A DNA stretch of 63,661 bases from an uncultured Candidatus Saccharibacteria bacterium (GCA_964503795.1 CAZDBT010000003.1:1-63661), one strand, 5' to 3'. Numbered from the stretch's first letter, positions 6,130-19,682 are shown. Notes: generated from the sequence alone by a model not told the origin. Numbers and translations: made by a program.

Positions 6130-6733
6130 ACCGGCGGGGCTTGGCAAAGATACAAACGCTTTCAATGCCGATCATTTTCAAGTCCACTACTTTTTCGATC
6201 GTGAGAACACTGCCGACCATATTCAGTAGATCGTTTTTAGGCCGGATATAGTCTCCGCGGTCTAGCGAATTCATAAATCGTCCGATCAAATTGGTCGGTT
6301 TTTGCTGTATCGGATCGCAAATAACCACATATTTAGAAGCGATCCGGTTCAGAGTGGTTAATAGTGTTTTATTTTCCTGATCGGAGAGATGGTGAGTGGC
6401 ATCGATCAGAATGGCGATATCGTAAGAGGAATCACGGATCGCCGCAGTGTTGGCATCGGCGCAAAGGAATTTCTTTTTTTCATTTCCGTAAAGTTTGCTG
6501 GCGGCATCAATGTATTTCCGGCTTAAGTCCACCCCCAGATAATCAGCATCGGTGATGGCGCTGTATTGTCCGGCCCCGCAGGCAATGTCGATCACAGACA
6601 TTTTTTCAGTGATGCCGAAATTCCGGATAACCTTCATCCGGGTACGGTAGAGACCGAATAAATAATCCTCCAGCCTGCGGAAATTTATCCAAATGGAAGA
6701 ATTTTCCAGGATCCTAGTGAAAAATCTGATCAT
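6119..6733 (-). CDS. Class I SAM-dependent methyltransferase
   Basis: Motif I VIDIACGAGQY. This is the only minus-strand gene in the 950-26146 block. Its 3' end overlaps the RfbH-like gene by 11 nt (convergent). Confidence 0.7.
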   Translation of the reverse strand: MIRFFTRILENSSIWINFRRLEDYLFGLYRTRMKVIRNFGITEKMSVIDIACGAGQYSAITDADYLGVDLSRKYIDAASKLYGNEKKKFLCADANTAAIRDSSYDIAILIDATHHLSDQENKTLLTTLNRIASKYVVICDPIQQKPTNLIGRFMNSLDRGDYIRPKNDLLNMVGSVLTIEKVVDLKMIGIESVCIFAKPRRSIS

Positions 6734-6800
6734 AGAGTTAAATTACCACCGGTTTACTTTTTGGTCAAAAAAATGTAAAATAAGGTGGCAATTTAAGAGA

Positions 6801-8156
6801 ATGATCAAGACTATTTTCATCACGATCTTTCAGGGAGTTGAGGCCAGGAATATTCTGCGTACCGATATCTATAGAGAGCTAGCGAAAAGGCCGGATATCC
6901 GGCTTGTTCTTTTTACCACCAGCCAAGCGAAGAAAGAGTATTACGAAAAAGAATTTCACGGACCGAATATCGTTTATGAAGTGGTGGAAGATTATGCCGC
7001 CGGCGGCCTACAAAGATTCTTTGGGGCTGTTAAATTCAATTTGATAAACACCGCAACCATTGATGTTAAGCGCCGGCTTTCTTTCCAAAGCGACAAAAGT
7101 TACCTGAAATTTGTCTGGCGTTTTTTGTTCAACCGCGTTTTCGCCCATCGACCGGTGAGAAAACTGGTTCGCTGGCTGGATTGGCGTCTGGTTTCCGACA
7201 GGTTTTTTTCTCCTTATTTTGAAAAATACCAACCAAGCGCGGTTTTTATGGCGCACCTTTTCGGAGGCGTGGAAACGGCGATGCTTCGCGAGGCGCGGCA
7301 TCGAGGCATCGCCACCATCGGCTTAATTAATTCCTGGGATAAGGTCACGGCTCGCGCCATGATCCGCCTTTTACCGGACGAATTGATCGTTCACAATGAT
7401 CTGGTGAAAAAAGATGCGCTGGATCATACGGATATGCCCGAAGATCGGATCTTCGTCTCCGGTATCCCGTATTTTGATTATTATTTCCAGACCGAGCGTT
7501 CTACCAGAGAAGAATTTTGTAAGAAATTCGGAATTGACCCAAAAGATCGAATCATTCTCTACACCCCTGTAGGACGAACCAATAGTTCCGGCGATGCCGC
7601 CACCATTTCTATGCTTGATCGTTTATTGACCACCGGCCAATTGTCGGAGGGTTTGAGAGTGATAGTCCGTTTTCCTCCCAATGATGAGGTAGAGCTCCCG
7701 ACCGGATTCAAAAGTAAGTTTATTTTTCAGAGGCCGGGAAAGAGGTTCTCGGCTAAGCGGGGAACCGATTGGGATATGAACTTTGAGGATTTACGCGACT
7801 TGGCGGACACGCTGTATCATTGCGATCTGGCTATCGGATATTCATCCACAACGGCTATCGATGTCGCGGTTTTTGATAAGCCGATAATCAATATTGATTT
7901 CGACTTGCCCGGCGTCCCCTCGATCCGCTGGGTCTACCAAGTTAGTCACTACCAGCCGGTGCTGAAAACAGGAGCGGTTCGTTTGGTGAGGAGCGAAGCG
8001 GAGCTGGTTGGTTGGGTCAAAAAATACTTGGCCGATCCCAGCTTGGACAGGGCCGAACGGAAAAGGTTGGTTTTGGAACAGTGCGCGAATTTGGACGGAC
8101 AGGCGGGTAAACGAGTGGCCAAATTTCTTCTAGACAAAGCTTTAGCGACACAATAA
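6801..8156 (+). CDS. TagB/TagF-like (CDP-polyol/sugar-phosphate transferase-like) GT-B enzyme, paralogue 1
   Basis: 451 aa from ATG 6801. Shares SWDxxT, G(I/T)PxxDxYF, YTPVGR, FPPNDE and GYSSTTAIDVAVFDKPIINI motifs with 14089-15408 and 16317-17684. These resemble the Glyphos_transf signature (from memory). Confidence 0.5.
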   Translation: MIKTIFITIFQGVEARNILRTDIYRELAKRPDIRLVLFTTSQAKKEYYEKEFHGPNIVYEVVEDYAAGGLQRFFGAVKFNLINTATIDVKRRLSFQSDKSYLKFVWRFLFNRVFAHRPVRKLVRWLDWRLVSDRFFSPYFEKYQPSAVFMAHLFGGVETAMLREARHRGIATIGLINSWDKVTARAMIRLLPDELIVHNDLVKKDALDHTDMPEDRIFVSGIPYFDYYFQTERSTREEFCKKFGIDPKDRIILYTPVGRTNSSGDAATISMLDRLLTTGQLSEGLRVIVRFPPNDEVELPTGFKSKFIFQRPGKRFSAKRGTDWDMNFEDLRDLADTLYHCDLAIGYSSTTAIDVAVFDKPIINIDFDLPGVPSIRWVYQVSHYQPVLKTGAVRLVRSEAELVGWVKKYLADPSLDRAERKRLVLEQCANLDGQAGKRVAKFLLDKALATQ

Positions 8157-8166
8157 AATTACGACA

Positions 8167-8652
8167 ATGATCAAGATAGAGTTTTTAACCAGGCCGACCC
8201 CGCAGGACCTGAAAGATATCAACCGCCTTATTCCGCAGATCGCCGAAAAACCCCATTTGTTGTCTATGAAAGAGTTGAAGCGGGTGACCGATCAACAAGA
8301 GAGCTGTCGGGTGATCGTTGCTCGCGATTCCAAGACCAGCCAGATCGCCGGTATGTGCGCTCTCACGCTGGTCCGAGTTCTTACTGGTCTACTTGCGATG
8401 GTTGAGGACGTAGTGGTGGACAGCAACTACCGTGGCTTGGGCATCGGCCAGATGTTGACGCAGAAAATGATCGACGTCGCCAAGGCAAAGAGAGCTAAGC
8501 ATATAAGCCTGACCACCAACCCGAAGCGCGAAGCCGCCAACGCTATGTATAAGAAAATTGGATTTTTCCTGAAGGAAACTAATTACTACCGGATCAATCT
8601 TTATCTTCCTAAGCCGAATTTTAAAAAACCCGAGGGCCCGAAGATGCGCTAA
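8167..8652 (+). CDS. GNAT family N-acetyltransferase, paralogue 1
   Basis: VVDSNYRGLGIGQMLTQKMIDVAKAKRAKHISLTTNPKREAANAMYKKIGF (acetyl-CoA binding Q/RxxGxG/A). Clear paralogue of 13631-14086. Confidence 0.8.
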   Translation: MIKIEFLTRPTPQDLKDINRLIPQIAEKPHLLSMKELKRVTDQQESCRVIVARDSKTSQIAGMCALTLVRVLTGLLAMVEDVVVDSNYRGLGIGQMLTQKMIDVAKAKRAKHISLTTNPKREAANAMYKKIGFFLKETNYYRINLYLPKPNFKKPEGPKMR

Positions 8653-8670
8653 AATTTCGGTTAATGACTA

Positions 8671-9018
8671 ATGAACAAAATCCAATCCGTTGGGATAGAC
8701 ATAGAAGAAGTTGGGCGATTCAAAAAAGTTCCGTTCCGCCGGAACGCCACTTTTTATAAAAAGATTTTTACCGTCGGGGAAATAAAGTACTGCCTAGCCA
8801 AAGAAGATCCCTATCCGCATTTTGCCGCCCGTTTTGCCGCCAAGGAGGCAGTTTTGAAATGTTTGCGGAGCACTATTTATAAAGTTAAGGATATCGAAGT
8901 ATCCAATGATAACAGGGGCGTCCCAAGTGTTAAAGTAAAAGGCAGCCGCGGCAGATTCCTGATCTCCCTGTCGCATACAAAAAACCAAGCCGCGGCGATC
9001 GCATTATGGTTAAACTAA
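8671..9018 (+). CDS. acpS: Holo-[acyl-carrier-protein] synthase (4'-phosphopantetheinyl transferase, AcpS type)
   Basis: 115 aa. GIDIEEVGRF, FTVGEIKYC, ARFAAKEAVLK and ISLSHTKNQAAA motifs. Confidence 0.8.
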   Translation: MNKIQSVGIDIEEVGRFKKVPFRRNATFYKKIFTVGEIKYCLAKEDPYPHFAARFAAKEAVLKCLRSTIYKVKDIEVSNDNRGVPSVKVKGSRGRFLISLSHTKNQAAAIALWLN

Positions 9019-10484
9019 TCCAAGAATATTTTTCCGAGTCCGCCGATAAATATCCGGACTACCCCGCCGTAGTTTTCAAGGACAAGCCGATCAGCTATGG
9101 AGATCTGGAGCAGAGGAGCAATCGGCTGGCCACTGCTTTAAAGGGGTTAGGAGTGAAGCGCGGTGATCGCGTGGCCTTTTGCCTTCATAAATCTCCTAAG
9201 TCTTTTATGACTATTCTTGGAATTCTGAAAGTAGATGCCATCTACGTTCCGCTGAACGCCAAGGCGCCAGTAGCTAGAATTGCTCAGATGATCGAAGACG
9301 CAACCCCTTCAGTGGTTATTTGCGAAAAAGCCACTAGGCAGCTGGTTGAAGGAGTGAAATTATTTGATCTGGATGAAAAGGAAGAGTCGTTAGCCGATCT
9401 GCCCGCTTCCACCCCTCACTATAAAAATACCGGGGAGGACCTAGCTTACATCCTGTATACCTCCGGTTCGACCGGCATCCCAAAGGGCGTGATGATCACG
9501 CACGCTAATATTATCAACGCTACTGAATGGGCGGTGGATGAGTTTAAGATTACCCACAAAGATCGCATGTCGCAGCATCCGCCGTTGCATTTCGACCTGT
9601 CTACTTTTGATCTTTATTGCGCTTTCAAAGTTGGCGCGACTTTGTATCCGATACCGGAAGAGCTGTCGTTGTTCCCCGGTCAGTTAATGAAATTTATTGA
9701 AGAGAATAAGCTTACAATCTGGGACTCGGTGCCGTCGGTGATGGTCTATCTTTCTAATGCGGGAGTAGTTAAGCCGGATCGACTGCCCAGTTTGCAGAAA
9801 ATATTTTTCAACGGTGAGGGTTTCCCAACCCGATTCCTGGCGGAGTGGATGATGACTTTTCCAAAAAAAGAATTCGTTAACATGTATGGGCCGACCGAGG
9901 CGACCGTACAATGCTCGTTTTATCGGATTCCCGAACCGCCCAAAGACTTGGTAAAGTTGGTGCCGATCGGAAAGGCTTGCCGGAATGTGGAAATTTTTGA
10001 TGTTGACGGGGAGCTTTACATTTCGGGCTCCGGAGTCGGTAAGGGTTATTGGAATAATCCGGAGAAGACCGCCGCCTCCTTCGTGGAGTGGCCGGGCAGG
10101 GGAAGGGTTTATAAAACCGGCGATCTGGTACGCTTACGGGAAGATGGAAATTATGAATTTATTGGACGTAAAGATTTCCAGGTAAAGGTGATGGGTAATC
10201 GGATTGAGCTGGGAGACGTGGAGGCCGCTTTGCTGTCCCTGTCGTATGTGGCGGAAGCGGCGGCGATCGCTTTAGATGTTCCTGAAACCGGCGGACAGGA
10301 GATCGTGGGATTCATAAAGTTAAAGGTTCCACAGGAAGAAAAGAAGGTTAAAGAGGACTTGGCTAAAATTATTCCTACATATATGATTCCCGCGAGCATT
10401 GTTGTTCGGGATTTCCTGCCAAGGACCGGAACGGGGAAGGTGGATCGTAATCAATTGAAAGCCGATTATGGAAATAAAAAATAA
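9006..10484 (+). CDS. Stand-alone adenylation enzyme (DltA-like amino/acyl-AMP ligase for a carrier protein)
   Basis: LYTSGSTGIPKGV (A3), NMYGPTE, YKTGDL, GRKDFQVKVMGNRIELGDVE and PRTGTGKVDR (A10) motifs. 13-nt overlap with acpS. Confidence 0.8.
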   Translation: MVKLIQEYFSESADKYPDYPAVVFKDKPISYGDLEQRSNRLATALKGLGVKRGDRVAFCLHKSPKSFMTILGILKVDAIYVPLNAKAPVARIAQMIEDATPSVVICEKATRQLVEGVKLFDLDEKEESLADLPASTPHYKNTGEDLAYILYTSGSTGIPKGVMITHANIINATEWAVDEFKITHKDRMSQHPPLHFDLSTFDLYCAFKVGATLYPIPEELSLFPGQLMKFIEENKLTIWDSVPSVMVYLSNAGVVKPDRLPSLQKIFFNGEGFPTRFLAEWMMTFPKKEFVNMYGPTEATVQCSFYRIPEPPKDLVKLVPIGKACRNVEIFDVDGELYISGSGVGKGYWNNPEKTAASFVEWPGRGRVYKTGDLVRLREDGNYEFIGRKDFQVKVMGNRIELGDVEAALLSLSYVAEAAAIALDVPETGGQEIVGFIKLKVPQEEKKVKEDLAKIIPTYMIPASIVVRDFLPRTGTGKVDRNQLKADYGNKK

Positions 10485-10707
10485 CATCAAGTCTTTTTTA
10501 GAAAAAGAAACCCAGAAAACGATCGCCGGCGATTCGGAGAATTTAATTTCTAGCGGCCTTATTGATTCGTTCACGATGATCAAGCTGATCGGCTTCATCG
10601 AGTCCGATCTGGGTGTTAAGGCAAATATGGAAGAATTGACCCCGGATAATTTTAATTCGATCGAAACCATCAGTCAGATAATAGAAAAATGGAGATCCGC
10701 CAAGTAA
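10468..10707 (+). CDS. Carrier protein 1 (DltC/PCP-like)
   Basis: 79 aa. Phosphopantetheine site GLIDSFTMIKLIGFIE. Overlaps both neighbouring genes. Confidence 0.75.
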   Translation: MEIKNNIKSFLEKETQKTIAGDSENLISSGLIDSFTMIKLIGFIESDLGVKANMEELTPDNFNSIETISQIIEKWRSAK

Positions 10708-11729
10708 AGAAATCGGAGTGGGACAAGCTGCGCGTTTTCAACGAAGCGGAATACAAACCCGGCCACATTTTAACAGATAAGAATTATTATGACTGGCAGT
10801 TTGACTCTCCCTGGAACACCAACAAAGATTGTTATGAAACTCTGGGTCTTTTCGACGGAAAAGGAGATATCGTGGGAACTTTCGGATTGTATTCTGCCCC
10901 CCATAATTATTTCGGGCGCACCCTGACCGGCAGCCAGCTTTGCAACCTGATGGTAAAGAAAGAGTTGCGCGCTTTAGGCTACGGCTATTTGTTACTTGAG
11001 CAAGCTGCTTCGCTGCATCCATTAGCTATTGACCACACTATTAATGAGACTGCTTGGCCGATGTTTATGAAGGCAGGTTGGTTGGGCGAAGAGATTAGGC
11101 GCTTTTTATATATAATCAATCCAAAGACCCCGCTTTATGAATTACCGGCCGCAGAGCACCGCCGGGCGGTTGCGGAAGGCTGGCATTTTGATGCCGTTAC
11201 GGAATTCGATTCGTCGGTAGATATTTTTTGGAAGACAGTGAAAAACCGTTACCCGATCTCTATAGAGCGGAGCGCTCAATACCTGAACTGGCGATATGCA
11301 AAAAATCCTTTGGCTAAATACCAGATTTTTGCGGCCAAAAATGGCGGGGAGGTCAAAGCGGTAGTCGTGTTGCGCGTTGAGGAACCTAAAATGGGTCAGT
11401 CTTTGGGAATGAAGGTGGCCCGGATCATAGATTTTGTTTCCGCTGAAGATTCGGAAGTTTTTGCTTTGGATGCCACTTCCCATTATTGTCGAGAGAATAA
11501 AATTGATTTCATAGATTATTTCACCAGTGGGGATTTCCATAAGAAGGGCCTGAGAGAGGCAGGTTTCGTTTTTGGGGACGAGGGAGAGTATGAAAAAGTT
11601 CCGATTCTTTTCAACCCGGTCAGCTCAAAACGCAAGCGATTGAATTTTGCCATGAAGTCTAAGGAGGAGTTTAAACTGAAGGACTGCTACACAACTAAAG
11701 GAGGAGGAGATCAGGATAGGCCTTATTAA
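10689..11729 (+). CDS. GNAT-fold / FemAB-like acyl(aminoacyl)transferase candidate; function unknown
   Basis: 346 aa. N-terminal GNAT-like stretch (LMVKKELRALGYGYLLLEQA) and a second half with YLNWRY as in BioF2/FemAB-like acetyltransferase domains (from memory). Sits between carrier protein 1 and the FkbH-like gene. Confidence 0.4.
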   Translation: MEIRQVKKSEWDKLRVFNEAEYKPGHILTDKNYYDWQFDSPWNTNKDCYETLGLFDGKGDIVGTFGLYSAPHNYFGRTLTGSQLCNLMVKKELRALGYGYLLLEQAASLHPLAIDHTINETAWPMFMKAGWLGEEIRRFLYIINPKTPLYELPAAEHRRAVAEGWHFDAVTEFDSSVDIFWKTVKNRYPISIERSAQYLNWRYAKNPLAKYQIFAAKNGGEVKAVVVLRVEEPKMGQSLGMKVARIIDFVSAEDSEVFALDATSHYCRENKIDFIDYFTSGDFHKKGLREAGFVFGDEGEYEKVPILFNPVSSKRKRLNFAMKSKEEFKLKDCYTTKGGGDQDRPY

Positions 11730-11796
11730 GGGCTCAGAGAGCGGTAATTTGTAATTGCCAGTGAGTCTAAATCCTGTTAGTCTACAGGTGCTATAA

Positions 11797-13374
11797 ATGA
11801 CTGATTTCAAGCAATTACAGCGTCAAGTTTTTAGTTTGGCGTCCAAAAATGACTCCTCGGTTTCCGACTATGTTTCTATAGGAAAGAAGATTAATGCCGA
11901 TAAGCCGGAATTCCCGGAGTATTTTCGTAAGATCAAGGTGGCATTTCTGAGCAACTTTACCTTATTGGGTTTGCCGGAAGTATTTAAAGCTCAGGCCATC
12001 TTTCACAATGTGGCAGTCGAAACTTATCTGGGTGAGTACAATCAGTATGCTCAGGAGATCCTGAATTCCGAGAGCGCATTGAACAAGTTTAAGCCGAAAT
12101 TAATTTATTTCCTGATCGATCCCCAGGATAGCGACCAAGACCAAGTTGAGGAGTTGGCGAACTTGGCGAGCGCCAATTTAGGAGCGCAGGTAGAGGTAGT
12201 CTCCGACTTCGGAGAATTTAAGGAATTTTGGTATACGAAATATAAGGACTTAGGCGATCTGCGCCTGGCGCCGGATGCTTTTCCTGAATTCTCTAGAACG
12301 CTGATGGGGAAAGCGATCGCCGTTAGCGGAGCGACCAAGAAATGCCTGGTTTTGGATCTGGATAATACATTATGGTCTGGCATCGTCGGGGAAGATGGCG
12401 CCGATAAGGTGGTGCCGAATAGGAAATTGCAGAAGCATATTTTAAATTTATATAAGCAGGGAACCATCTTGGCCATCGACAGCCGCAATAATGAGGCGGA
12501 TGCGATGGAGGTAATCGAGAAACATCCGGATATGATTTTGCGGAAGGATCACTTCGCGGCCTGGCAGATCAACTGGAGCGATAAGGCGACTAACATCCGA
12601 GCCATTGCCGAAGAGTTGATGCTTGGCAGCGACAGTTTCGCGTTCGTCGATGACGACCCCTTCCAACAGAATCTAGTAGCGGAGGCCTGCCCGGAGATTG
12701 CGGTTCTCCACCCGGACTCCCTGTTTTCTTATCCCGGATTTTCCGCATCCAAAATTACTGCTGAAGATATGCGTCGCGGTGAGATGTATGCGGAAGAAAG
12801 GACTCGTCGCAGTTTACAATCTTCGTTGAAAAGCGTGGACGATTTTCTGAAAGAATTAAATTTAAACGTAACTATCCGGGAAGTGAGATCAGGCAGCGTC
12901 AGTATTCCCCGTATTTCTCAAATGACGCAAAAAACCAATCAGTTCAATATGACGACTAAGCGTTGGAATGAGGATGAGGTAGGAAAAATGTTGAAGTCCG
13001 GATCAAAGATGTGGACCGTCGAGGCGGTCGATCGTTTTGGCGATTACGGCGTGGTTGGTTTTTTAAGCGTATTGCCGAAAAGTAACACCGGATGGGAGAT
13101 AGATAATTTTCTGATGAGCTGTAGGATTCTGGGGCGCGGTATAGAGAAGTCTCTTCTTGCCCATCTGATCGCCAAAGCCAGAGAAGTTGGAATTGAAGAT
13201 CTGGCTGGCTTATTTGTTCCCACCAAGAAGAATAAGTCTTTATGTGAAAAGTTTTATCAGGAAAATAATTTTAAGCTTAGCGGTGACGAGAACGGCACCC
13301 TGAGGTACCGCTATGATTTCTCCCAAGATTACTCCTACCCTAGTCTAATAAAGGTAAATATCGCCCAATCGTAG
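11797..13374 (+). CDS. FkbH-type HAD-IIIC protein with C-terminal GNAT-like domain (glyceryl/hydroxyacyl-carrier-protein loader)
   Basis: LVLDLDNTLWSGIVGEDG (HAD motif I of the FkbH/IIIC subfamily), FVDDDPFQ, and C-terminal FLMSCRILGRGIEKSLLAHLIAKA. Confidence 0.75.
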   Translation: MTDFKQLQRQVFSLASKNDSSVSDYVSIGKKINADKPEFPEYFRKIKVAFLSNFTLLGLPEVFKAQAIFHNVAVETYLGEYNQYAQEILNSESALNKFKPKLIYFLIDPQDSDQDQVEELANLASANLGAQVEVVSDFGEFKEFWYTKYKDLGDLRLAPDAFPEFSRTLMGKAIAVSGATKKCLVLDLDNTLWSGIVGEDGADKVVPNRKLQKHILNLYKQGTILAIDSRNNEADAMEVIEKHPDMILRKDHFAAWQINWSDKATNIRAIAEELMLGSDSFAFVDDDPFQQNLVAEACPEIAVLHPDSLFSYPGFSASKITAEDMRRGEMYAEERTRRSLQSSLKSVDDFLKELNLNVTIREVRSGSVSIPRISQMTQKTNQFNMTTKRWNEDEVGKMLKSGSKMWTVEAVDRFGDYGVVGFLSVLPKSNTGWEIDNFLMSCRILGRGIEKSLLAHLIAKAREVGIEDLAGLFVPTKKNKSLCEKFYQENNFKLSGDENGTLRYRYDFSQDYSYPSLIKVNIAQS

Positions 13375-13382
13375 TAAAATAA

Positions 13383-13619
13383 ATGAACATGAAAACTATT
13401 GAAGAAGTTTTGGGAAAAGTCTTAAATATTGATCCGTCGAGGATCTCGGATGAAACCGGCCCATCAAATACGGAAGCTTGGGACTCTTTCAGCGGTCTGC
13501 TGATAGTGTCAGAGCTGGAAAAGAATTTTAGTTTGAAACTAACGATCGAAGAGGTGATCCTAGTGAAAAACGTACGGGACATCCGGGCGATCCTTAATAA
13601 ACATGGGATCAAAGCTTAA
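13383..13619 (+). CDS. Carrier protein 2 (ACP-like)
   Basis: 78 aa. Phosphopantetheine site EAWDSFSGLLIVSELE. Directly downstream of the FkbH-like gene. Confidence 0.7.
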   Translation: MNMKTIEEVLGKVLNIDPSRISDETGPSNTEAWDSFSGLLIVSELEKNFSLKLTIEEVILVKNVRDIRAILNKHGIKA

Positions 13620-13630
13620 ACATCAAAACT

Positions 13631-14086
13631 ATGTTTGATATTGAAAGACTAAAAGATGCCGACGCGACCACCGCCAAGCAGATAAATTCTCTTACCAGCC
13701 AGCTTGGTCTTACTGGCGTGGCTCCTAAACCGATCTCTCAAGAGGATTTAGCGGAGATGTTGGGTCAGAGCAACTTACATTGCCTTGTGGTCCGCGACCG
13801 TGATCGAATCGTTGGTTTGATGGTTTTATATCTGACCCGAATACCGACCGGCCTGATCGCGGAAGCGGAGGACTTGGTTGTGGATGAAGACTACCGCAAA
13901 TGGGGCGTAGGCCCGATGTTGGTTCAAAAGGCGATAGAGATATCGGAGACCAGTGGCGCTAAGCATATTAGCTTGAGGACTAACCCGAAGAGAGTTGAGG
14001 CTAATAAGATGTATCAAGCTTTGGGATTTCATACTAAGGAATCCGTTTTCTATCGGATAAACCTGCCGAGGAAGCCCGGCGTTTAA
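13631..14086 (+). CDS. GNAT family N-acetyltransferase, paralogue 2
   Basis: VVDEDYRKWGVGPMLVQKAIEISETSGAKHISLRTNPKRVEANKMYQALGF aligns along its length with 8167-8652. Confidence 0.8.
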   Translation: MFDIERLKDADATTAKQINSLTSQLGLTGVAPKPISQEDLAEMLGQSNLHCLVVRDRDRIVGLMVLYLTRIPTGLIAEAEDLVVDEDYRKWGVGPMLVQKAIEISETSGAKHISLRTNPKRVEANKMYQALGFHTKESVFYRINLPRKPGV

Positions 14087-14088
14087 TT

Positions 14089-15408
14089 ATGAAAACAATC
14101 TTTTTGTGCGTTCCCAACTATATATTTACCTCGGATCTTTTGCGTACTAAGTATATAGAATATCTGTCCTCCAAGTATCGGGTGGTGGTGCTGACTCCGA
14201 TGATCGACGCGGAAGCTGCTGCTGCCCGTCATTATTTTCAGTCGCCGAATGTGATTTATATAAAAAGAGAGATGGAAAACCCGAAGCTTTGGAGCCGGTT
14301 TAAATTTTTGAGGATCGCTTTAGTTGGAGAGTTCGACTACCTGACCTCCATGAAGCATTTCTACAAACGTCCGAACTACCTGCATAACTGGAGGCGTCGA
14401 TTTTTGAGGACTATCGGGAGGCCTTTCTCAAAGATTCTTACCGCCGACTTTTTTACCAAATGGGAATCTCGCTTGCTGCCGGACTCAAAGTCGTTTCAGA
14501 AATTACTGGATGACTATCACCCGGAATTATTAGTGACTGCCACGCCGGGATTTGATGCTTGGGAGGGAGAGTTAATCCTGTTGGCAAGGCGGGCCGGCCT
14601 GTCTAGCGTGGCGGTGAATTTTACCTGGGATAATCTGACAACGAACAGCAAGCATATACGGAAGTCGGATTGCCTTATCGCCTGGAACGAAATAATGAGG
14701 GGGGAGGCTGAAAAGATCCACCGCTATTCTCCTGATAAGGTTTTTGTTTCCGGAACGCCGCGCTTTGATCCTTATTTCAGGGATGAGAAAAAAGAACCGA
14801 CTCGCGAAGAATTTTTGCGCTCAAAAGGTTTAGATCCCAAGAACAGGACCGTTTTCCATACGACGGTAACCAAGGCCTATCCATTCCAGAAGAAGTATAT
14901 TTACGACCTGATCAATTTAAGAAAAGATAAAAAAATTCCATATGTTAATCTCCTGATCCGAATTCACCCGCTGGACCTGATAGAGAACTATTCGGAATTC
15001 AAGGATATTCCTGACTTTTGCATTGAACGTTCCGGTAAAGAAATAGAAATGAGCTACGACGATCTGCTGAATTTGAAGTGCTCTCTGAAATATACGGACC
15101 TGAACATCAACTATGCTTCAACTATAACCATCGAGGCTTGTATTTTTGACAAGCCCGTGATCAACATCGGCTACCTAGGGGTCTACGCTCTGGCCTATGA
15201 ATTCGACCATTACCGGCCGATCTATGAGAGTGGCGCGGTAAAGCTGGCGAAGACCGACGACGATCTGCCAAGACTGATCAACGCCTACCTTTCCGACCCC
15301 GGCAAAGATCGCGAGGCTCGCCTGGCGATTGTCGACAGATATGTTAAGTTTACCGACGGTCTTTCCTATAAGAGAAGCGTTGATCTATTGGAAAAATGTT
15401 CTCAATAA
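14089..15408 (+). CDS. TagB/TagF-like GT-B enzyme, paralogue 2
   Basis: 439 aa. TWDNLTT, SGTPRFDPYF, IRIHPLD and NYASTITIEACIFDKPVINI motifs. Confidence 0.5.
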   Translation: MKTIFLCVPNYIFTSDLLRTKYIEYLSSKYRVVVLTPMIDAEAAAARHYFQSPNVIYIKREMENPKLWSRFKFLRIALVGEFDYLTSMKHFYKRPNYLHNWRRRFLRTIGRPFSKILTADFFTKWESRLLPDSKSFQKLLDDYHPELLVTATPGFDAWEGELILLARRAGLSSVAVNFTWDNLTTNSKHIRKSDCLIAWNEIMRGEAEKIHRYSPDKVFVSGTPRFDPYFRDEKKEPTREEFLRSKGLDPKNRTVFHTTVTKAYPFQKKYIYDLINLRKDKKIPYVNLLIRIHPLDLIENYSEFKDIPDFCIERSGKEIEMSYDDLLNLKCSLKYTDLNINYASTITIEACIFDKPVINIGYLGVYALAYEFDHYRPIYESGAVKLAKTDDDLPRLINAYLSDPGKDREARLAIVDRYVKFTDGLSYKRSVDLLEKCSQ

Positions 15409-16313
15409 ACGACAAACACATAATCGTTAACTATCACTATGTGGAGGATCCCAACCCCAAGTTTTCGGGCATTACTCCTTGTTCGGTTCCTGAATTCGAC
15501 CGGCAGGTTCAATTTTTGTCTAAGAATTACCGAATAGTTTCTGTTCCGGAAGTTTATGAAGCCGCCCAGGCCGGTAAGGCGGACAGATTGTGCGCGATAA
15601 CCTTTGACGATGGATTGAAGGACCAGTATCAGAATGCCCTGCCGATATTGGAAAAATACGGGGCTTCCGGAACCTTTTTCATAATCACCTCAACCTTTGA
15701 GGGCCGCCTGCCGCCTGCTCACAAGGTACACATTTTGCTTTCCAAGTTGCCCATAGAGCAGTCCATCGACACCTTCCATGGTTTTTTGAAAGAGTTCTAT
15801 CCGGACCTGTCGGCTCAATACCTAATACCCAAAGACAGGAGATTGACTCAGAAGCGGTTACACGAAAGTCCGGCCAACGCGAATTTCAAGGAAACCATGA
15901 TCACCCTTCCGGAAGATATTAAAGGCCAATTTCTCCGGTATTGTTTCAAGCAGTTCAAGATCAAAGAAGAAAAGATCAGCCGGAATCTTTTTATGTCCCA
16001 GGAAGAAGTAAAAGATTTGCGGGCTAGAGGAATGGTGGTCGGTAATCATTCTCATAGCCACTACTCTTTTGACGTGATTAGCGAAGAGACCGCCTCCAAC
16101 GAGGTGAAGTTAACTTCTGAGCTTCTGTCGGGTATGTTGGGTAGCGCGCCGACGATTTTTTCTTATCCTCACGGCCGGCAGGGAAAAGATTCCGGTTCGG
16201 TATTGGAGCCGCTAGGGATGAAGTATGCGGTTAACATCGTCCGCAAGGCGGTAGAGAAAGGAGATGAGAGATTCTCCATTCCGCGTTATGACACGGCCGA
16301 TATCTCAATTTAA
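15396..16313 (+). CDS. Polysaccharide deacetylase (NodB/CE4 family)
   Basis: ITFDDGLKDQY (NodB motif 1) and GNHSHSHYSF motifs. Confidence 0.8.
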   Translation: MFSINDKHIIVNYHYVEDPNPKFSGITPCSVPEFDRQVQFLSKNYRIVSVPEVYEAAQAGKADRLCAITFDDGLKDQYQNALPILEKYGASGTFFIITSTFEGRLPPAHKVHILLSKLPIEQSIDTFHGFLKEFYPDLSAQYLIPKDRRLTQKRLHESPANANFKETMITLPEDIKGQFLRYCFKQFKIKEEKISRNLFMSQEEVKDLRARGMVVGNHSHSHYSFDVISEETASNEVKLTSELLSGMLGSAPTIFSYPHGRQGKDSGSVLEPLGMKYAVNIVRKAVEKGDERFSIPRYDTADISI

Positions 16314-16316
16314 AAC

Positions 16317-17684
16317 ATGCGCACTATTTTTATTGCCGCCTTCAATCCATTTATCCTTAGGAATATTCTCATTGGCGACGCCCTATCAGTTTTAAAGGCG
16401 GAGCCTGATAGCCGAGTGGTAGTCTTAGTTCCTGACTACAAGGTAGATTTTTTTAAAAAGGCGATCGGGGGCGATCGGGTACTTATTGAGGGGGTTAAAA
16501 CTCAAATTATTTCCCGGCAGGATATTTTTTTCCGGTTTGTTAACAGCTCTCTGGCTAACACCGACTCCCTTTCTATTCATAAGAGAACCCAGCTGGAACA
16601 GGGAAGGAATTTCCCGCGTTTCTTGGCCGCTCTTCTTTTGATGAAGGTTTTTGGCCGACTCAAAGCAATTCGTAATCTAAGCAGGCTGGCGGATTATCTG
16701 ACGATCGATAAGGCCCGATTTTCCGGACTATTTGATCGTTATCAGCCAGATCTGGTTTTTTCCACCGACGTTTTTCACGATGACGATGTTCATCTTTTGG
16801 CAGCGGCCAAAAAGCGCAGCGTTAAAACTGTGGGGATGGTACGATCTTGGGACAATTTCACCACAAAAGGAATTTTTCGGATCCGACCGGACGCTCTGAT
16901 CGTCCACAACGAAATTATGAAAGATGAAGCTTTGAGGCATTCCGGAATGATAGCCAAGGATATTTTCATCAGCGGCATTCCCCAATACGACCGTTATTTT
17001 TCCGGGCAGCGGATGGCACGGGAGGATTTTTTCAAAAAGATCGGATTGGATCCTGCCAAGAAAATGATTTTATTTTCCCCGTTTGGTAAACGCTTCACCG
17101 ATACCGACTGGCAAGTAATGGAAATTTTAAAGGAATTCATAGAAAAAAAACTCATTCCTCCCTCCCAGGTCCTAGTGCGCTTTACTCCTAATGATGAAGT
17201 TCCTTTGGGTAAATTTGAGCCGAGCGGGGATTTCTATATGGATAAGCCCGGCCATCAGTTTAAGGTCGGCGTTTTTCGGGACCAGGAGCTGAATGCATCT
17301 GATATGGACTGGCTGGCCGACTCTTTAGCTAATGCCGACGTGGTAGTGGCCGGTGGCGCTTCCATCGGAGTGGACGCAGCCGCTTTTGATAAGCCGGCGA
17401 TCCTGATCTACTTTGATGGTTTTGAGGATCGGCCGATTTTGCGAAGCGTTCGGAGATTTATAGATTACAGCCATGGCAAGCTGGTGAATCGTGACGGCTC
17501 TGTGATGCCGGCGAGGAGTCGCGAGGAATTGTTAAGCTGTTTGAATCAGGCATTAGGAAGTCCCGCTTCTGGACGCGAGCTTAGAAAAAAAATGATCGAG
17601 AGGATGTGTTGGAAAACTGATGGCCAGGCGGGAAAGAGGATAGGTAATTTTCTTTCTGCAATGTGGAGCCAGCGATATCGTTAG
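16317..17684 (+). CDS. TagB/TagF-like GT-B enzyme, paralogue 3
   Basis: 455 aa. SWDNFTT, SGIPQYDRYF, LFSPFGKR, VRFTPNDE and AFDKPAILIYF motifs. Confidence 0.5.
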   Translation: MRTIFIAAFNPFILRNILIGDALSVLKAEPDSRVVVLVPDYKVDFFKKAIGGDRVLIEGVKTQIISRQDIFFRFVNSSLANTDSLSIHKRTQLEQGRNFPRFLAALLLMKVFGRLKAIRNLSRLADYLTIDKARFSGLFDRYQPDLVFSTDVFHDDDVHLLAAAKKRSVKTVGMVRSWDNFTTKGIFRIRPDALIVHNEIMKDEALRHSGMIAKDIFISGIPQYDRYFSGQRMAREDFFKKIGLDPAKKMILFSPFGKRFTDTDWQVMEILKEFIEKKLIPPSQVLVRFTPNDEVPLGKFEPSGDFYMDKPGHQFKVGVFRDQELNASDMDWLADSLANADVVVAGGASIGVDAAAFDKPAILIYFDGFEDRPILRSVRRFIDYSHGKLVNRDGSVMPARSREELLSCLNQALGSPASGRELRKKMIERMCWKTDGQAGKRIGNFLSAMWSQRYR

Positions 17685-19625: not shown

Positions 19626-19682
19626 GCGAGCATTTCTTTTGACTCGTAAGCTATAAAGTGTTAATTTATAAGCACAAAATTG

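What the first reader, a model, noticed from the sequence alone, without database searches (positions are those of the whole stretch)
8167..14086. Two carrier-protein arms (DltA-like/CP1 and FkbH-like/CP2) with a dedicated AcpS but no DltB/DltD: a candidate new glycan acylation system
Seen in sequence:
- The block contains acpS (8671-9018), an adenylation enzyme with A3/A8/A10 cores (9006-10484) and a 79-aa carrier protein (GLIDSF).
- It also contains a 346-aa GNAT/FemAB-like protein, an FkbH-type HAD-IIIC protein (LVLDLDNTLWSGIVGEDG) and a 78-aa carrier protein (EAWDSF). Paralogous GNATs sit on both sides.
- Coding overlaps of 13, 17 and 19 nt at 9006/9018, 10468/10484 and 10689/10707 imply translational coupling.

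Established:
- DltA/DltC deliver D-alanine to teichoic acids through DltB (MBOAT) and DltD.
- FkbH enzymes load a glycolysis-derived glyceryl unit onto an ACP.
- CPR bacteria typically lack fatty-acid synthesis, so an AcpS here has no obvious housekeeping client.

Inference:
- Two thiotemplated donors, an aminoacyl-S-CP1 and a glyceryl/hydroxyacyl-S-CP2, are transferred in the cytoplasm by the FemAB/GNAT-like and GNAT enzymes.
- The acceptor would be an amino sugar or nonulosonate intermediate, giving for example N-aminoacyl and N-glyceroyl NulO, or esters on a polyol-phosphate chain.
- No MBOAT or DltD-like gene is present, so the route differs from Dlt.
Basis: partly seen in the sequence, partly recalled or inferred. 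Interest (0 to 1): 0.8.

Follow-up and report, generated by a model that had tools for sequence, protein, structure and literature searches.

The report
Carrier-protein acyl donors for sialic-like sugars
A candidate-phyla-radiation bacterium carries a conserved gene module that most likely loads an amino acid and a glycerate-derived unit onto two small carrier proteins and then attaches them to a sialic-acid-like surface sugar, which offers a testable genetic basis for the poorly understood N-acyl diversity of these sugars.

Summary
All eight ORFs, their motifs and the 13/17/19-nt overlaps are real and conserved in orthologous loci.

- **Adenylating enzyme:** an NRPS-type alpha-amino-acid A domain (Asp235 and Lys517 present), not a DltA equivalog.
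- **346-aa protein ("LG"):** a tandem GNAT with an N-myristoyltransferase-like fold. It founds a large uncharacterised family, with relatives in 245 species genomes.
- **Evidence that LG uses carrier-protein (CP) donors:** family members occur as CP-LG, FkbH-CP-LG and ligase-LG fusions. They also sit next to a loader (A domain, FkbH or acyl ligase) plus CP in 26 of 35 loci.
- **Link to nonulosonic acid (NulO) genes:** 22-24 of 35 loci carry NeuB, NeuC or a CMP-synthetase nearby.
a CE4 de-N-acetylase lies within 6 kb of LG in 27 of 35 loci (window 15396-16313).
- **Correction:** the upstream "DegT" is an RfbH-type 3-dehydrase.

Close relatives of the small GNATs replace LG at the end of FkbH-CP arms. 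The best model is therefore A-CP1-LG as arm 1 and FkbH-CP2-GNAT-b as arm 2, N-acylating a NulO or its precursor in the cytoplasm.

Substrates and acceptor are inferred, not shown. The module is a new variant of a known kind (compare NodB/NodF/NodA, V. cholerae tetronate genes and Aeromonas flagellin islands).

The parts
8167..8652 (+). Small GNAT-a (161 aa). Candidate N-acyl or N-acetyl transferase, conserved just upstream of the PPTase.
   Evidence: PF00583 58.5 bits. Carries an RGLGIG pantetheine/CoA-pyrophosphate motif. 49% identical to its L006 orthologue and 43% to GNAT-b. The order 'GPT sG PPT A' recurs in L006, L100 and L106.
8671..9018 (+). AcpS-type 4'-phosphopantetheinyl transferase (115 aa).
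   Evidence: PF01648 67.5 bits; TIGR00556 68.1 bits against a cutoff of 45.35. A PPTase lies within 6 kb of LG in 12 of 35 loci, mostly CPR and DPANN.
9006..10484 (+). Stand-alone NRPS-type amino-acid adenylation enzyme (492 aa). Loader of arm 1.
   Evidence: TIGR01733 380.5 bits against a cutoff of 317.4; DltA models are below their cutoffs. Best PDB relatives are NRPS A domains. Specificity code DLFDFNMVQK, with Asp235 and Lys517, is conserved in 12 CPR loci down to 51% identity.
10468..10707 (+). Carrier protein CP1 (79 aa), partner of the A domain.
   Evidence: PP-binding 21.7 bits. Invariant Ser in G(L/I)(L/I)DSF across orthologues.
10689..11729 (+). Tandem-GNAT acyltransferase 'LG' (346 aa). 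Proposed transferase of the CP1-bound aminoacyl group to an amine.
   Evidence: AF2 pLDDT 94.7, pTM 0.92. Foldseek top hits are N-myristoyltransferases at TM 0.55, and the Eis-like 2ozg at TM 0.62. Invariant R94-x-x-G97-x-G99 and an invariant C-terminal GDQDR motif. Fusions with PP-binding, FkbH+PP-binding and AMP-binding domains. Synteny.
11797..13374 (+). FkbH-like loader (525 aa; FkbH_N, HAD-IIIC and C-terminal GNAT-fold domains). Loader of arm 2.
   Evidence: TIGR01686 289.5 bits against a cutoff of 146.65. Invariant D187/D189, S229, K263, D285-D286 and S441-C442-R443. AF2 pLDDT 89; the N-terminal part matches BF1531 (3SLR) and the C-terminal part is a GNAT fold.
13383..13619 (+). Carrier protein CP2 (78 aa), partner of FkbH.
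   Evidence: PP-binding 22.4 bits. Invariant Ser in WDSF(S/N)GL, shared by the FkbH-associated CPs of L002, L006, L007 and L008.
13631..14086 (+). Small GNAT-b (151 aa). Proposed transferase for the CP2-bound acyl group.
   Evidence: PF00583 50.9 bits. Starts 11 nt after CP2. Close relatives end FkbH-CP-MaoC-SDR arms in loci without any LG (L093, L097).
15396..16313 (+). CE4 polysaccharide de-N-acetylase (305 aa, no signal peptide). Proposed to create the free amine acceptor.
   Evidence: PF01522 81.7 bits. D71-D72, H218 and H222 conserved at 90% or more among 37 homologues. A homologue lies within 6 kb of LG in 27 of 35 loci and directly downstream in 21 loci.
6693..8156 (+). TagB-like GT-B protein 1. 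Candidate NulO transferase.
   Evidence: PF04464 40.4 bits. NF046086 (BFO_1060 family) 50 bits, below the cutoff of 200. BFO_1060 is orthologous to the genetically proven T. forsythia Pse/Leg-derivative transferases (PMC5420450).
14089..15408 (+). TagB-like GT-B protein 2. Candidate NulO transferase.
   Evidence: PF04464 42.6 bits; NF046086 72.7 bits, below cutoff.
16317..17684 (+). TagB-like GT-B protein 3. Candidate NulO transferase.
   Evidence: PF04464 29.9 bits. 711 bits against the local GPT profile.
19680..20861 (+). NeuC-type hydrolysing UDP-GlcNAc 2-epimerase.
   Evidence: TIGR03568 358.4 bits against a cutoff of 235.9.
20861..21577 (+). CMP-NulO synthetase-like cytidylyltransferase.
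   Evidence: PF02348 97.5 bits. PseF model 185 bits, below the cutoff of 205.7.
25004..26146 (+). NeuB-family NulO synthase.
   Evidence: PF03102 238 bits plus a SAF domain. NeuB_NnaB model 264 bits, below the cutoff of 399.65.

Best explanation
The block is a two-arm, carrier-protein ('thiotemplate') acyl-donor module. It sits inside a tight 20-gene operon-like array (6693-26146) that makes a nonulosonic-acid (NulO)-containing surface glycan in a Patescibacteria (CPR) bacterium.

Proposed steps:
1. The in-locus AcpS-type PPTase converts CP1 and CP2 to their holo forms.
2. Arm 1: the NRPS-type A domain activates an alpha-amino acid and loads it on CP1. The specificity code DLFDFNMVQK suggests a small or polar residue, but the identity is unresolved. 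The tandem-GNAT enzyme LG (346 aa) then moves the aminoacyl group from CP1 to an amino group of the sugar.
3. Arm 2: the FkbH-like enzyme takes a glycolytic C3 unit (canonically 1,3-bisphosphoglycerate), dephosphorylates it in its HAD domain, and passes it to CP2 as glyceryl-S-CP2, probably via the invariant Cys442 in its GNAT-fold domain. Small GNAT-b transfers this group to a second amine.
4. The acceptor is most likely the NulO made by NeuC, NeuB and the CMP-synthetase, or its hexosamine precursor. Its N-acetyl group would first be removed by the cytoplasmic CE4 de-N-acetylase (15396-16313).
5. The TagB-like GT-B paralogues then install the acylated CMP-NulO(s) on the glycan, which is exported by Wzx and handled by a Wzy_C/TPR protein.

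Shown: gene and domain identities, catalytic-residue conservation, synteny, fusions.
Inferred: substrates, acceptor, order of steps, and which transferase serves which arm.
For: - Domain identities and intact motifs.
- The A domain is NRPS-type with Asp235 and Lys517.
- LG is a confident tandem GNAT.
- Members of the LG family are fused to PP-binding, to FkbH+PP-binding and to AMP-binding domains.
- PPTase-A-CP-LG recurs in L001, L005, L006, L009-L012 and L014-L017. FkbH-CP-(MaoC-SDR)-LG recurs in L002, L007, L024 and L026-L032. CP-ligase-FeADH-LuxE-LuxC-LG recurs in L004, L022 and L023.
- Census of 35 species-level loci: loader 26, CP 19, CE4 deacetylase 27, and NulO genes 22 within 6 kb (24 within 10 kb). 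The deacetylase lies directly after LG in 21 loci.
- Close small-GNAT relatives terminate FkbH-CP arms where no LG is present (L093, L097). Small GNATs appear only in loci with a second arm.
- TagB-like proteins are proven NulO-derivative transferases, specific for their NulO type (PMC5420450).
- N-glyceroyl and N-alanyl NulOs exist chemically, and the genetic basis of the N-glyceroyl group is described as unresolved (PMC5378307; PMC7371886).
- FkbH-like loading domains use 1,3-BPG (PMC7901079). The window encodes GAPDH.
Against: - No biochemical data exist; every substrate is inferred.
- The A-domain code matches no specificity code that I could verify.
- The window lacks a Pse/Leg-type 4,6-dehydratase and aminotransferase. 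A Neu-type NulO would have only one amine for two arms and three GNAT-type transferases. This forces either several differently acylated NulOs, acylation of the aminoacyl alpha-amine, or non-NulO acceptors.
- The CE4 deacetylase is absent within 10 kb in several A-arm CPR loci (L001, L006, L009-L012), so de-N-acetylation may not be obligatory.
- An LG module in Azospirillum lies in a GT4 locus with no NulO genes in view.
- Small GNATs normally use acyl-CoA.
- The sG-to-arm-2 assignment rests on a handful of related CPR loci.
Confidence: 0.55

Rival explanations
1. The chemistry is the same, but the acceptor is a different amino sugar of the same glycan rather than the NulO. Candidates are a hexosamine, a hexosaminuronic acid, or a 3-/4-amino-deoxyhexose. 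One possible source is the upstream set of RfbH-like, class-I aminotransferase and transketolase genes.
For: - The Azospirillum module (deacetylase, ACP, ligase, AsnB, NadE, LG) lies among GT4 genes with no NulO genes in view.
- L008 pairs FkbH-CP with an Antibiotic_NAT-fold transferase in a locus rich in DegT and UDP-Glc dehydrogenase genes.
- 11-13 of 35 LG loci show no NulO gene within 6-10 kb.
- CE4 enzymes classically act on GlcNAc residues.
Against: - 22-24 of 35 loci do carry NeuB, NeuC or a CMP-synthetase near LG.
- Compact loci such as L028 read NeuB-NeuC-CMP-...-FkbH-CP-LG-MaoC-Dea with no other amino-sugar pathway.
- In L005, LG is followed directly by NeuC and the CMP-synthetase.
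Confidence: 0.2
2. LG serves both carrier proteins. The two small GNATs are ordinary acetyl-CoA-dependent N-acetyltransferases, for example capping the alpha-amine of the installed amino acid as in N-acetyl-alanyl NulOs.
For: - LG family members partner with FkbH-CP arms in many loci and are even fused to FkbH-CP.
- LG lies between CP1 and FkbH in the window.
- Small GNATs typically use acetyl-CoA.
- L001 and L005 carry formyltransferases instead, which suggests capping of a free amine.
- Leg5Ac7AcAla shows that capped aminoacyl NulOs exist.
Against: - The window's LG is orthologous (58-70% identical partner A domains) to LGs of single A-arm loci.
- L093 and L097 have FkbH-CP-MaoC-SDR followed by a small GNAT and no LG within 8 kb.
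- Small GNATs were found only where a second arm exists.
Confidence: 0.2
3. A cytoplasmic Dlt-like system: the A domain and CP1 esterify D-alanine onto a teichoic-acid-like polyol-phosphate polymer made by the TagB/TagF-family proteins.
For: - The A domain scores 315-326 bits on DltA models and CP1 scores 28.7 bits on a DltC model.
- There are three or four PF04464 proteins in the locus.
- L003 and L006 contain CTP_transf_like genes, the TagD family.
Against: - All Dlt scores are below the curated cutoffs, and NRPS A domains are closer.
- No DltB, DltD or TagD-like gene was found in the window.
- The same LG modules occur in loci from phyla I know as diderm (Verrucomicrobiota, Planctomycetota, Acidobacteriota, Proteobacteria), next to NeuBCA.
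- TagB-like proteins are proven NulO transferases.
- The tight pairing with a de-N-acetylase points to amide chemistry, not ester chemistry.
Confidence: 0.06
4. A small secondary-metabolite pathway (NRPS/PKS-like, for example an N-acyl amino acid or tetronate-type product) that merely sits inside a glycan locus.
For: Stand-alone A domains, FkbH enzymes and discrete carrier proteins are hallmarks of NRPS/PKS pathways.
Against: - No ketosynthase, condensation or thioesterase domain is present in the window.
- Genes overlap with, or are tightly packed among, glycosyltransferase genes.
- Linkage to NulO and deacetylase genes is conserved across more than ten phyla.
Confidence: 0.03

Closest known systems
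NodB / NodF(-NodE) / NodA in rhizobial Nod-factor synthesis (from established knowledge, not re-tested here)
   Same: The logic is the same. A CE4 de-N-acetylase frees an amine on an amino sugar, a dedicated acyl carrier protein carries a non-standard acyl group, and a cytoplasmic N-acyltransferase installs it.
   Different: - The transferase here is a tandem GNAT (LG) or a small GNAT, not a NodA-family protein.
- The loaders are an NRPS A domain and FkbH, not a NodE ketosynthase.
- The likely acceptor is a NulO or its precursor, not a chito-oligosaccharide.
DltA/DltC/DltB/DltD D-alanylation of teichoic acids
   Same: A stand-alone adenylation enzyme loads an amino acid on a small dedicated carrier protein of about 80 aa to decorate a cell-surface polymer.
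   Different: - DltA and DltC equivalog scores are below their cutoffs.
- No MBOAT (DltB) or DltD was found in the window.
- Transfer is predicted to be cytoplasmic, by a GNAT-fold enzyme, and to form an amide rather than an ester.
FkbH/FkbJ-type glyceryl-ACP formation in polyketide pathways (methoxymalonyl-ACP, tetronates, lactyl starter units; PMC7901079, plus memory of OzmB and FR901464 work)
   Same: - The FkbH domain scores above its cutoff.
- HAD motifs and an invariant Cys are present.
- A dedicated CP is adjacent.
- Related loci add a MaoC dehydratase and an SDR, matching the DH+KR conversion of glyceryl-ACP to lactyl-ACP.
   Different: No PKS follows. The acyl group is predicted to be handed to an N-acyltransferase in a glycan pathway.
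Carrier-protein gene sets in glycan loci of cultured bacteria: Aeromonas flagellin glycosylation islands group II (ACP, 3-oxoacyl-ACP reductase, AMP-synthetase, LuxE, LuxC beside pse genes; PMC7874193); the C. jejuni cj1302 FkbH-domain gene in the flagellar glycosylation locus (PMC7099621); V. cholerae O1 RfbKLMN tetronate genes (from memory)
   Same: ACP plus an adenylate-forming or FkbH loader sits next to NulO or amino-sugar genes. The L004, L022 and L023 arms (CP-ligase-FeADH-LuxE-LuxC-LG) have the same gene content.
   Different: - Those sets are functionally uncharacterised. The Aeromonas set is interpreted only as 'fatty acid synthesis'.
- No tandem-GNAT/CE4 pair or two-arm layout is described in those papers.
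- An NRPS-type amino-acid A domain is not part of them.
N-myristoyltransferase and Eis-like tandem GNATs (structural neighbours of LG)
   Same: - Two fused GNAT domains, with an acyl-pantetheine binding motif in the N-terminal half.
- The acyl group is transferred to an amine.
- The extreme C-terminus is conserved. In NMT the C-terminal carboxylate is catalytic (from memory).
   Different: - Only 10-13% identity and TM about 0.55.
- No PF01233 hit for the window protein.
- The donor is a carrier protein rather than CoA, as shown by the fusions.
Chemically known N-acyl NulOs: T. forsythia Pse5Am7Gra (N-glyceroyl) and V. vulnificus Leg5Ac7AcAla (N-acetyl-alanyl)
   Same: These are the two kinds of N-acyl group that the two arms would produce.
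   Different: - The genes for these groups are not assigned in the papers read (PMC5378307, PMC7371886).
- I could not test whether those organisms carry FkbH, CP or LG homologues.

Membership tests
Dlt system (DltABCD) | DltA equivalog (D-alanine:D-alanyl carrier protein ligase) | tested here: not met
   TIGR01734 scores 315 bits against a cutoff of 559.85, and NF003417 scores 326 against 476. NRPS A domains score higher in the PDB search.
Dlt system (DltABCD) | DltC equivalog carrier protein | tested here: not met
   NF003464 scores 28.7 bits against a cutoff of 68, and TIGR01688 scores 19.5 against 52.35. Only the generic PP-binding domain is met.
Dlt system (DltABCD) | DltB (MBOAT) and DltD present | tested here: not met
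   No MBOAT or DltD family among the window proteins scanned. The rest of the genome is not available.
NRPS-type amino-acid adenylation domain (TIGR01733) | Model score above the curated cutoff, with core motifs A3, A8 and A10 | tested here: met
   380.5 bits against a cutoff of 317.4. The motifs are read directly from the sequence.
NRPS-type amino-acid adenylation domain (TIGR01733) | Asp235 and Lys517 (binding of the alpha-amino and carboxylate groups) | tested here: met
   Code DLFDFNMVQK. Positions were anchored on the LgrA alignment.
NRPS-type amino-acid adenylation domain (TIGR01733) | Identified amino-acid substrate | not testable with these tools
   No specificity predictor or reference code set was available. 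From memory, 5 of 10 positions match the Thr code DFWNIGMVHK.
FkbH-type glyceryl-carrier-protein loader | FkbH domain model above cutoff, with intact HAD motifs I-IV | tested here: met
   TIGR01686 scores 289.5 against 146.65. D187, D189, S229, K263 and D285-D286 are invariant.
FkbH-type glyceryl-carrier-protein loader | Conserved cysteine in the C-terminal acyl-transfer domain, and an adjacent dedicated CP with Ser | tested here: met
   S441-C442-R443 is invariant in 29 sequences. The C-terminal domain has a GNAT fold. CP2 has the conserved WDSF serine. The catalytic role of the cysteine is inferred.
FkbH-type glyceryl-carrier-protein loader | Loading of a glyceryl unit that depends on 1,3-bisphosphoglycerate | not testable with these tools
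   Requires an enzyme assay with intact-protein mass spectrometry.
AcpS-type phosphopantetheinyl transferase | ACPS domain and pantetheinyl-transferase domain models above cutoff | tested here: met
   PF01648 scores 67.5 against 25, and TIGR00556 scores 68.1 against 45.35. The AcpS equivalog TIGR00516 scores 51.4, below its cutoff of 59.8.
FemABX / N-myristoyltransferase tandem GNATs | Sequence membership (Pfam FemAB or NMT models) | tested here: not met
   Only weak generic GNAT hits. No PDB sequence hit at E<=10.
FemABX / N-myristoyltransferase tandem GNATs | Double-GNAT fold | tested here: met
   AF2 pLDDT 94.7. Foldseek E 1e-13 and TM 0.55 to NMTs; TM 0.62 to 2ozg.
NodB/NodF/NodA-type N-acyl exchange | CE4 de-N-acetylase with catalytic Asp-Asp and His-His, genetically linked to the CP and the transferase | tested here: met
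   PF01522 81.7 bits. Conserved D71-D72, H218 and H222. Linked to LG in 27 of 35 loci. In the window it lies 3.7 kb downstream of LG in the same gene array.
NodB/NodF/NodA-type N-acyl exchange | NodA-family acyltransferase | tested here: not met
   No NodA family hit. The transferases here are GNAT-fold.
NulO (sialic-acid-like) biosynthesis locus | NeuC-type epimerase, NeuB-family synthase and CMP-NulO synthetase | tested here: met
   NeuC scores 358 against 236. NeuB and SAF Pfam domains are present. CTP_transf_3 Pfam is present. The NeuB and PseF equivalog models are below their cutoffs, so the NulO type is undetermined.
NulO (sialic-acid-like) biosynthesis locus | Pse/Leg-route 4,6-dehydratase, aminotransferase and N-acetyltransferase (5,7-diamino NulO) | tested here: not met
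   The only DegT-family protein is an RfbH equivalog (583 bits against 423). phmmer with dehydratase and hexapeptide queries finds nothing in the window. Such genes could lie elsewhere in the genome.

The most novel reading that the evidence does not exclude
A widespread, modular 'N-acyl editing' system for sialic-acid-like sugars. A cytoplasmic CE4 de-N-acetylase strips the acetyl group from a NulO, or from its nucleotide or hexosamine precursor. A previously unrecognised tandem-GNAT family (LG), or a small-GNAT substitute, then re-acylates the amine from carrier-protein thioesters. Interchangeable loaders supply those thioesters: an NRPS A domain, FkbH with or without dehydratase and reductase, or acyl ligases with LuxCE-type tailoring. 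In this window two such arms would make two differently acylated NulOs (aminoacyl and glyceroyl), each installed by its own TagB-like transferase. This would give CPR bacteria, DPANN archaea and more than ten other phyla combinatorial surface-sugar diversity. It would also explain N-glyceroyl, N-lactyl and N-aminoacyl NulOs in general.
Probability: 0.35. Interest if true: 0.85.

Novelty: new variant of a known kind. Interest (0 to 1): 0.68.

Why it matters
Nonulosonic acids carry a striking range of N-acyl groups, including acetyl, acetimidoyl, glyceroyl, hydroxybutyryl and (N-acetyl)alanyl. These groups shape immune recognition, phage binding and biofilm behaviour. The enzymes that install the non-acetyl groups are largely unknown: the T. 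forsythia authors call the N-glyceroyl step 'a major challenge' (PMC5378307).

This locus and its relatives define a concrete, recurrent gene set for that step: loader, carrier protein, tandem GNAT and CE4 deacetylase, placed next to NeuB, NeuC and a CMP-synthetase. The set can be tested directly in vitro and in cultured carriers.

It also assigns a probable role to a large unannotated protein family (461 representative clusters at E<=1e-30). It explains why CPR and DPANN genomes, which lack fatty-acid synthesis, retain an AcpS. Finally, it suggests that thiotemplate logic from NRPS/PKS biosynthesis is widely reused to diversify cell-surface glycans.

Tried and rejected
- **LG against PDB sequences:** no hit at E<=10. 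Only the fold comparison was informative.
- **Literature searches for a direct precedent:** FkbH + pseudaminic; glyceroyl + pseudaminic + ACP; legionaminic + alanyl + carrier protein; tetronate/perosamine/rfbK; FkbH + polysaccharide; nonulosonic + ACP; nonulosonic + Patescibacteria. They returned only passing mentions (cj1302; the Aeromonas ACP/LuxCE genes). No biochemical characterisation was found.
- **'DegT' as the NulO aminotransferase:** rejected. It is an RfbH equivalog.
- **Dlt membership:** rejected on the curated cutoffs.
- **E. albertii plasmid LG relative:** lies in a non-glycan context and is uninformative.
- **S. meliloti pSymB FkbH+ACP:** unannotated or without NulO context in the stretch seen.
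- **Promoter and terminator scan:** promoter-like sites were fewer than in shuffled sequence and terminator-like sites only modestly more, and no promoter-like or terminator-like site marks an internal boundary within the block.
- **Small-GNAT relatives below about 40% identity:** generic GNATs with no conserved context. The sG-to-arm-2 inference therefore rests only on close relatives.
- **A-domain substrate:** the code DLF(D/N)FNMVQK matches no code that I could verify. Partial resemblance to the Thr and DltA codes is from memory only.

Full report
**1. Observation**

The eight ORFs exist exactly as described, and their family assignments hold.
- GNAT-a, 8167-8652.
- AcpS-type PPTase, 8671-9018: PF01648, 67.5 bits.
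- Amino-acid adenylation enzyme, 9006-10484: TIGR01733, 380.5 bits against a cutoff of 317.4.
- CP1, 10468-10707: PP-binding, just above cutoff.
- A 346-aa protein, 10689-11729: only weak N-terminal GNAT hits.
- FkbH-domain HAD-IIIC protein, 11797-13374: TIGR01686, 289.5 bits against 146.65.
- CP2, 13383-13619.
- GNAT-b, 13631-14086.

The 13, 17 and 19 nt overlaps are correct. Overlaps of 13 and 17-23 nt recur at the same junctions in the called genes of three orthologous loci. The two small GNATs are 43% identical. The whole arrangement is syntenic in locus L006 at about 50-65% protein identity, so this is a conserved unit and not a chance juxtaposition.

**2. Context**

The block lies in a tight co-directional array from 6693 to 26146, with overlaps or gaps of at most 67 nt. 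I found no convincing internal terminator. The array holds:
- three TagB-like GT-B proteins (a weak fourth lies just downstream on the opposite strand at 26127-27386);
- a CE4 polysaccharide deacetylase (15396-16313);
- a 632-aa membrane protein;
- a NeuC-type epimerase (358 bits against 236), a CMP-NulO-synthetase-like enzyme and a NeuB-family synthase;
- a 2-hydroxyacid dehydrogenase, a cupin and two EamA transporters.

Further downstream are a Wzy_C/TPR protein, a Wzx flippase and an initiating sugar transferase.

The upstream 'DegT' is an RfbH equivalog, a 3,6-dideoxyhexose 3-dehydrase (583 bits against 423). The window contains no Pse/Leg-type 4,6-dehydratase, aminotransferase or hexapeptide acetyltransferase. 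The NulO may therefore be of the Neu type, with a single nitrogen, unless such genes lie elsewhere in the genome.

BFO_1060, the name-giver of the NCBIfam family weakly hit by the TagB-like proteins, is orthologous to the genetically proven T. forsythia Pse/Leg-derivative transferases. Those transferases are specific for their NulO (PMC5420450).

The nearest homologues of the block's proteins come from Patescibacteria.

**3. The parts**

*A domain.* It is closest to NRPS adenylation domains: LgrA scores 449 bits summed over its two A domains (about 220-227 bits each), the single-domain proline ligase 6o6e scores 283 bits, and DltA structures score about 217 bits. It falls below the DltA equivalog cutoffs. 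I anchored the specificity positions on the LgrA alignment. The resulting code is DLFDFNMVQK, with Asp235 and Lys517 present, which indicates an alpha-amino acid rather than a fatty acid. The code DLF(D/N)(F/L/C)N(M/L)VQK is conserved in 12 CPR loci down to 51% identity. That implies one conserved substrate, which I could not identify.

*Carrier proteins.* All ten examined keep the serine, and they fall into two classes. The A-associated class reads G(L/I)(L/I)DSF. The FkbH-associated class reads WDSF(S/N)GL.

*FkbH.* It keeps every HAD motif plus an invariant S-C-R (Cys442). Its AF2 model (pLDDT 89) shows an FkbH_N+HAD part matching BF1531 (3SLR). It also shows a C-terminal GNAT-fold domain in which Cys442 precedes an RxxGxG motif. 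FkbH-like loading domains use 1,3-bisphosphoglycerate (PMC7901079), and the window encodes GAPDH.

*The 346-aa protein (LG).* Its model is very confident (pLDDT 94.7) and shows a tandem GNAT. The nearest solved relatives are N-myristoyltransferases and an Eis-like GNAT, at only 10-13% identity. It has an invariant RxxGxG in the N-terminal half and an invariant GDQDR motif at the extreme C-terminus.

**4. Comparative genomics**

*Family size.* A word-index search suggested LG was restricted to CPR (61 proteins). Two more sensitive searches changed that. A pattern/tblastn scan of species-representative genomes found relatives in 245 genomes, spanning CPR, Nanoarchaeota, Verrucomicrobiota, Planctomycetota, Acidobacteriota, Proteobacteria, Chloroflexi and others. 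A profile search found 461 representative clusters at E<=1e-30 and 4,864 at E<=1e-10.

*Census.* I ran local profile HMMs over 35 loci that had a full-length LG and at least 4 kb of flank on both sides. Within 6 kb of LG:

| Neighbour of LG | Loci (of 35) |
|---|---|
| Any loader | 26 (FkbH 9, A domain 8, acyl ligase 11) |
| Carrier protein | 19 |
| CE4 deacetylase | 27 |
| At least one of NeuB, NeuC, CMP-synthetase | 22 (24 within 10 kb) |
| PPTase | 12 |

The deacetylase lies directly downstream of LG (under 400 bp, same strand) in 21 loci.

*Recurrent arms ending in LG*:
- PPTase-A-CP-LG.
- PPTase-FkbH-CP-MaoC-SDR-LG. This matches the dehydratase+reductase logic that, from memory, turns glyceryl-ACP into lactyl-ACP in polyketide starter units.
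- CP-ligase-FeADH-LuxE-LuxC-LG.

*Fusions.* P0237 is FkbH-CP-LG. P0194, P0236, P0238 and P0225 are CP-LG. P0218 is AMP-ligase-LG. LG therefore draws on carrier-protein-bound acyl groups.

*A compact example.* A Verrucomicrobial O-antigen-type locus reads Wzm-NeuB-NeuC-CMP-2HacidDH-GT2-FkbH-CP-LG-MaoC-deacetylase-AsnB-Wzt and further GTs. It has no sugar dehydratase or aminotransferase.

*A cultured example.* Azospirillum ramasamyi carries deacetylase-ACP-adenylate-forming enzyme-AsnB-NadE-LG among GT4 genes.

*PPTase distribution.* The in-locus PPTase is mostly confined to CPR and DPANN loci (with the titles).

**5. Which transferase serves which arm**

Small GNATs of this type were found only in loci with a second arm after LG: the window, L006 and L010. 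A metagenome scan with the small-GNAT alignment showed that all close relatives (at least 44% identity) sit in the same glycan context. In L093 and L097 the arm reads FkbH-CP-MaoC-SDR-sG with no LG within 8 kb. L100 and L106 reproduce 'GPT-sG-PPTase-A'. More distant hits are generic GNATs with no conserved context.

The window's LG groups with LGs of single A-arm loci. I therefore assign LG to arm 1 (A/CP1) and GNAT-b, which starts 11 nt after CP2, to arm 2 (FkbH/CP2). GNAT-a may be a capping or third acyl/acetyl transferase. This assignment is inference from a small set of related loci.

**6. Mechanism**

Shown: gene and domain identity, intact catalytic residues, conserved synteny, and fusions.

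Inferred:
1. The PPTase makes holo-CP1 and holo-CP2.
2. The A domain forms aminoacyl-S-CP1. FkbH forms glyceryl-S-CP2 from 1,3-BPG.
3. The cytoplasmic CE4 enzyme removes an N-acetyl group from the NulO or its precursor. It has no signal peptide and keeps D71-D72 and H218/H222.
4. LG and GNAT-b form amides with the freed amine(s).
5. The TagB-like paralogues transfer the CMP-activated products.

Open problems:
- A Neu-type NulO has one amine but the locus has two arms. Possible resolutions are several differently acylated NulOs each with its own transferase, acylation of the aminoacyl alpha-amine, or a non-NulO acceptor.
- Several A-arm CPR loci have no deacetylase within 10 kb. An alternative entry point is N-acylation of a free glucosamine phosphate before nucleotide activation.

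**7. Comparison with known systems and novelty**

This is not a Dlt system: the equivalog scores are below cutoff and DltB/DltD are absent from the window. It works most like NodB/NodF/NodA (deacetylase + ACP + N-acyltransferase), but with unrelated transferases and loaders.

Carrier-protein gene sets beside NulO or amino-sugar genes are documented but uncharacterised in cultured bacteria. Examples are the Aeromonas flagellin islands (PMC7874193), C. jejuni cj1302 (PMC7099621), and V. cholerae O1 RfbKLMN (from memory).

N-glyceroyl and N-(acetyl)alanyl NulOs are chemically known, and the genetic basis of the N-glyceroyl group is described as unresolved (PMC5378307; PMC7371886). I found no paper describing the tandem-GNAT/CE4 pairing, the fusions or the two-arm layout.

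Verdict: a real, conserved module; a new variant of a known kind; of good interest because it makes the origin of NulO N-acyl diversity directly testable.

Noticed in passing
window 950-6129 (GT2 950-1909; split transketolase 1779-2726 and 2723-3640; class-I aminotransferase 3612-4802; RfbH-like 4807-6129); second split transketolase at 52032-52895 and 53177-54166: A glycan-locus copy of a two-subunit transketolase sits next to an Asp/GntC-like aminotransferase and an RfbH-type 3-dehydrase. The same set is conserved in L006. A second split transketolase lies among glycolytic genes and is presumably the housekeeping copy. The first set may build an unusual branched sugar or a C2-extended deoxy-amino sugar.
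   Followed up: partly
window 10689-11729, residues 334-346; alignment A1: The extreme C-terminus of the tandem GNAT (TKGGGDQDRPY) is invariant or nearly so across 39 homologues (D341, D343, R344). In N-myristoyltransferases, the closest fold relatives, the C-terminal carboxylate acts as catalytic base (from memory). A similar role here is conceivable.
   Followed up: no
window 21579-22523; also L001 17250-18185, L005 16547-17503, L006 20484-21443, L028 5912-6916: A D-2-hydroxyacid dehydrogenase (PGDH/glyoxylate-reductase-like, below equivalog cutoffs) is conserved beside the NulO biosynthesis genes (after the CMP-NulO synthetase in the window, L001 and L028; just before NeuB in L006; upstream of the cupin-EamA-NeuB set in L005). 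This holds in CPR and Verrucomicrobia loci whether or not FkbH is present. Its role in the NulO pathway is unexplained.
   Followed up: partly
window 17727-19625; L005 2937-4820 and 14610-16523; L006 11926-13773: A multi-pass membrane protein of about 615-637 aa with no Pfam hit is conserved inside these NulO loci. It may be a GT-C-type transferase or a polymerase.
   Followed up: no
L002 6871-10020; L007 10001-13010; L093; L097; L024; L026: Many loci extend the FkbH-CP arm with a MaoC dehydratase and an SDR. This is the gene logic for converting glyceryl-CP to lactyl-CP (or pyruvoyl-CP where only MaoC is present, as in the Verrucomicrobial loci). It predicts N-lactyl or N-pyruvoyl sugars.
   Followed up: partly
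L004 4761-11038; L022; L023: The arm CP-acyl ligase-Fe-ADH-LuxE-LuxC-LG has the same gene content as the uncharacterised ACP/AMP-synthetase/LuxE/LuxC set of the Aeromonas flagellin glycosylation islands. From memory, it also matches the V. cholerae O1 tetronate genes.
   Followed up: partly
L091 (Azospirillum ramasamyi NZ_CP029830.1, 261989-269573); L028 12229-14259: Glutamine-dependent amidotransferases sit inside the module: AsnB in both loci, plus NadE-like in Azospirillum. This suggests that some arms amidate a carboxylate on the carrier-bound acyl group or on the sugar.
   Followed up: no
L001 9194-9985 and 11134-11946; L005 794-1603: FolD and a formyltransferase flank LG in some single A-arm loci that lack small GNATs. 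This is consistent with N-formyl capping of the installed amino acid.
   Followed up: no
window 29431-31626: A 731-aa Wzy_C (O-antigen ligase / O-oligosaccharyltransferase-type) protein has C-terminal TPR repeats. A similar protein occurs in L007. The NulO glycan might be attached to protein rather than to lipid.
   Followed up: no
L047, L035, L070 (A-type loaders next to LG outside CPR): The specificity codes of these loaders (DLFFLCLIAK, DLHFLCLIAK, DLIVFCSVSK) carry Cys at position 301. As I recall, DltA does too. These more distant arms may load alanine, while the CPR clade (Asn301, Gln331) loads something else.
   Followed up: partly
window 44724-45635: A 303-aa protein with a lamin-tail domain (PF00932, 58.7 bits) lies among housekeeping genes. 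It is unrelated to the finding.
   Followed up: no
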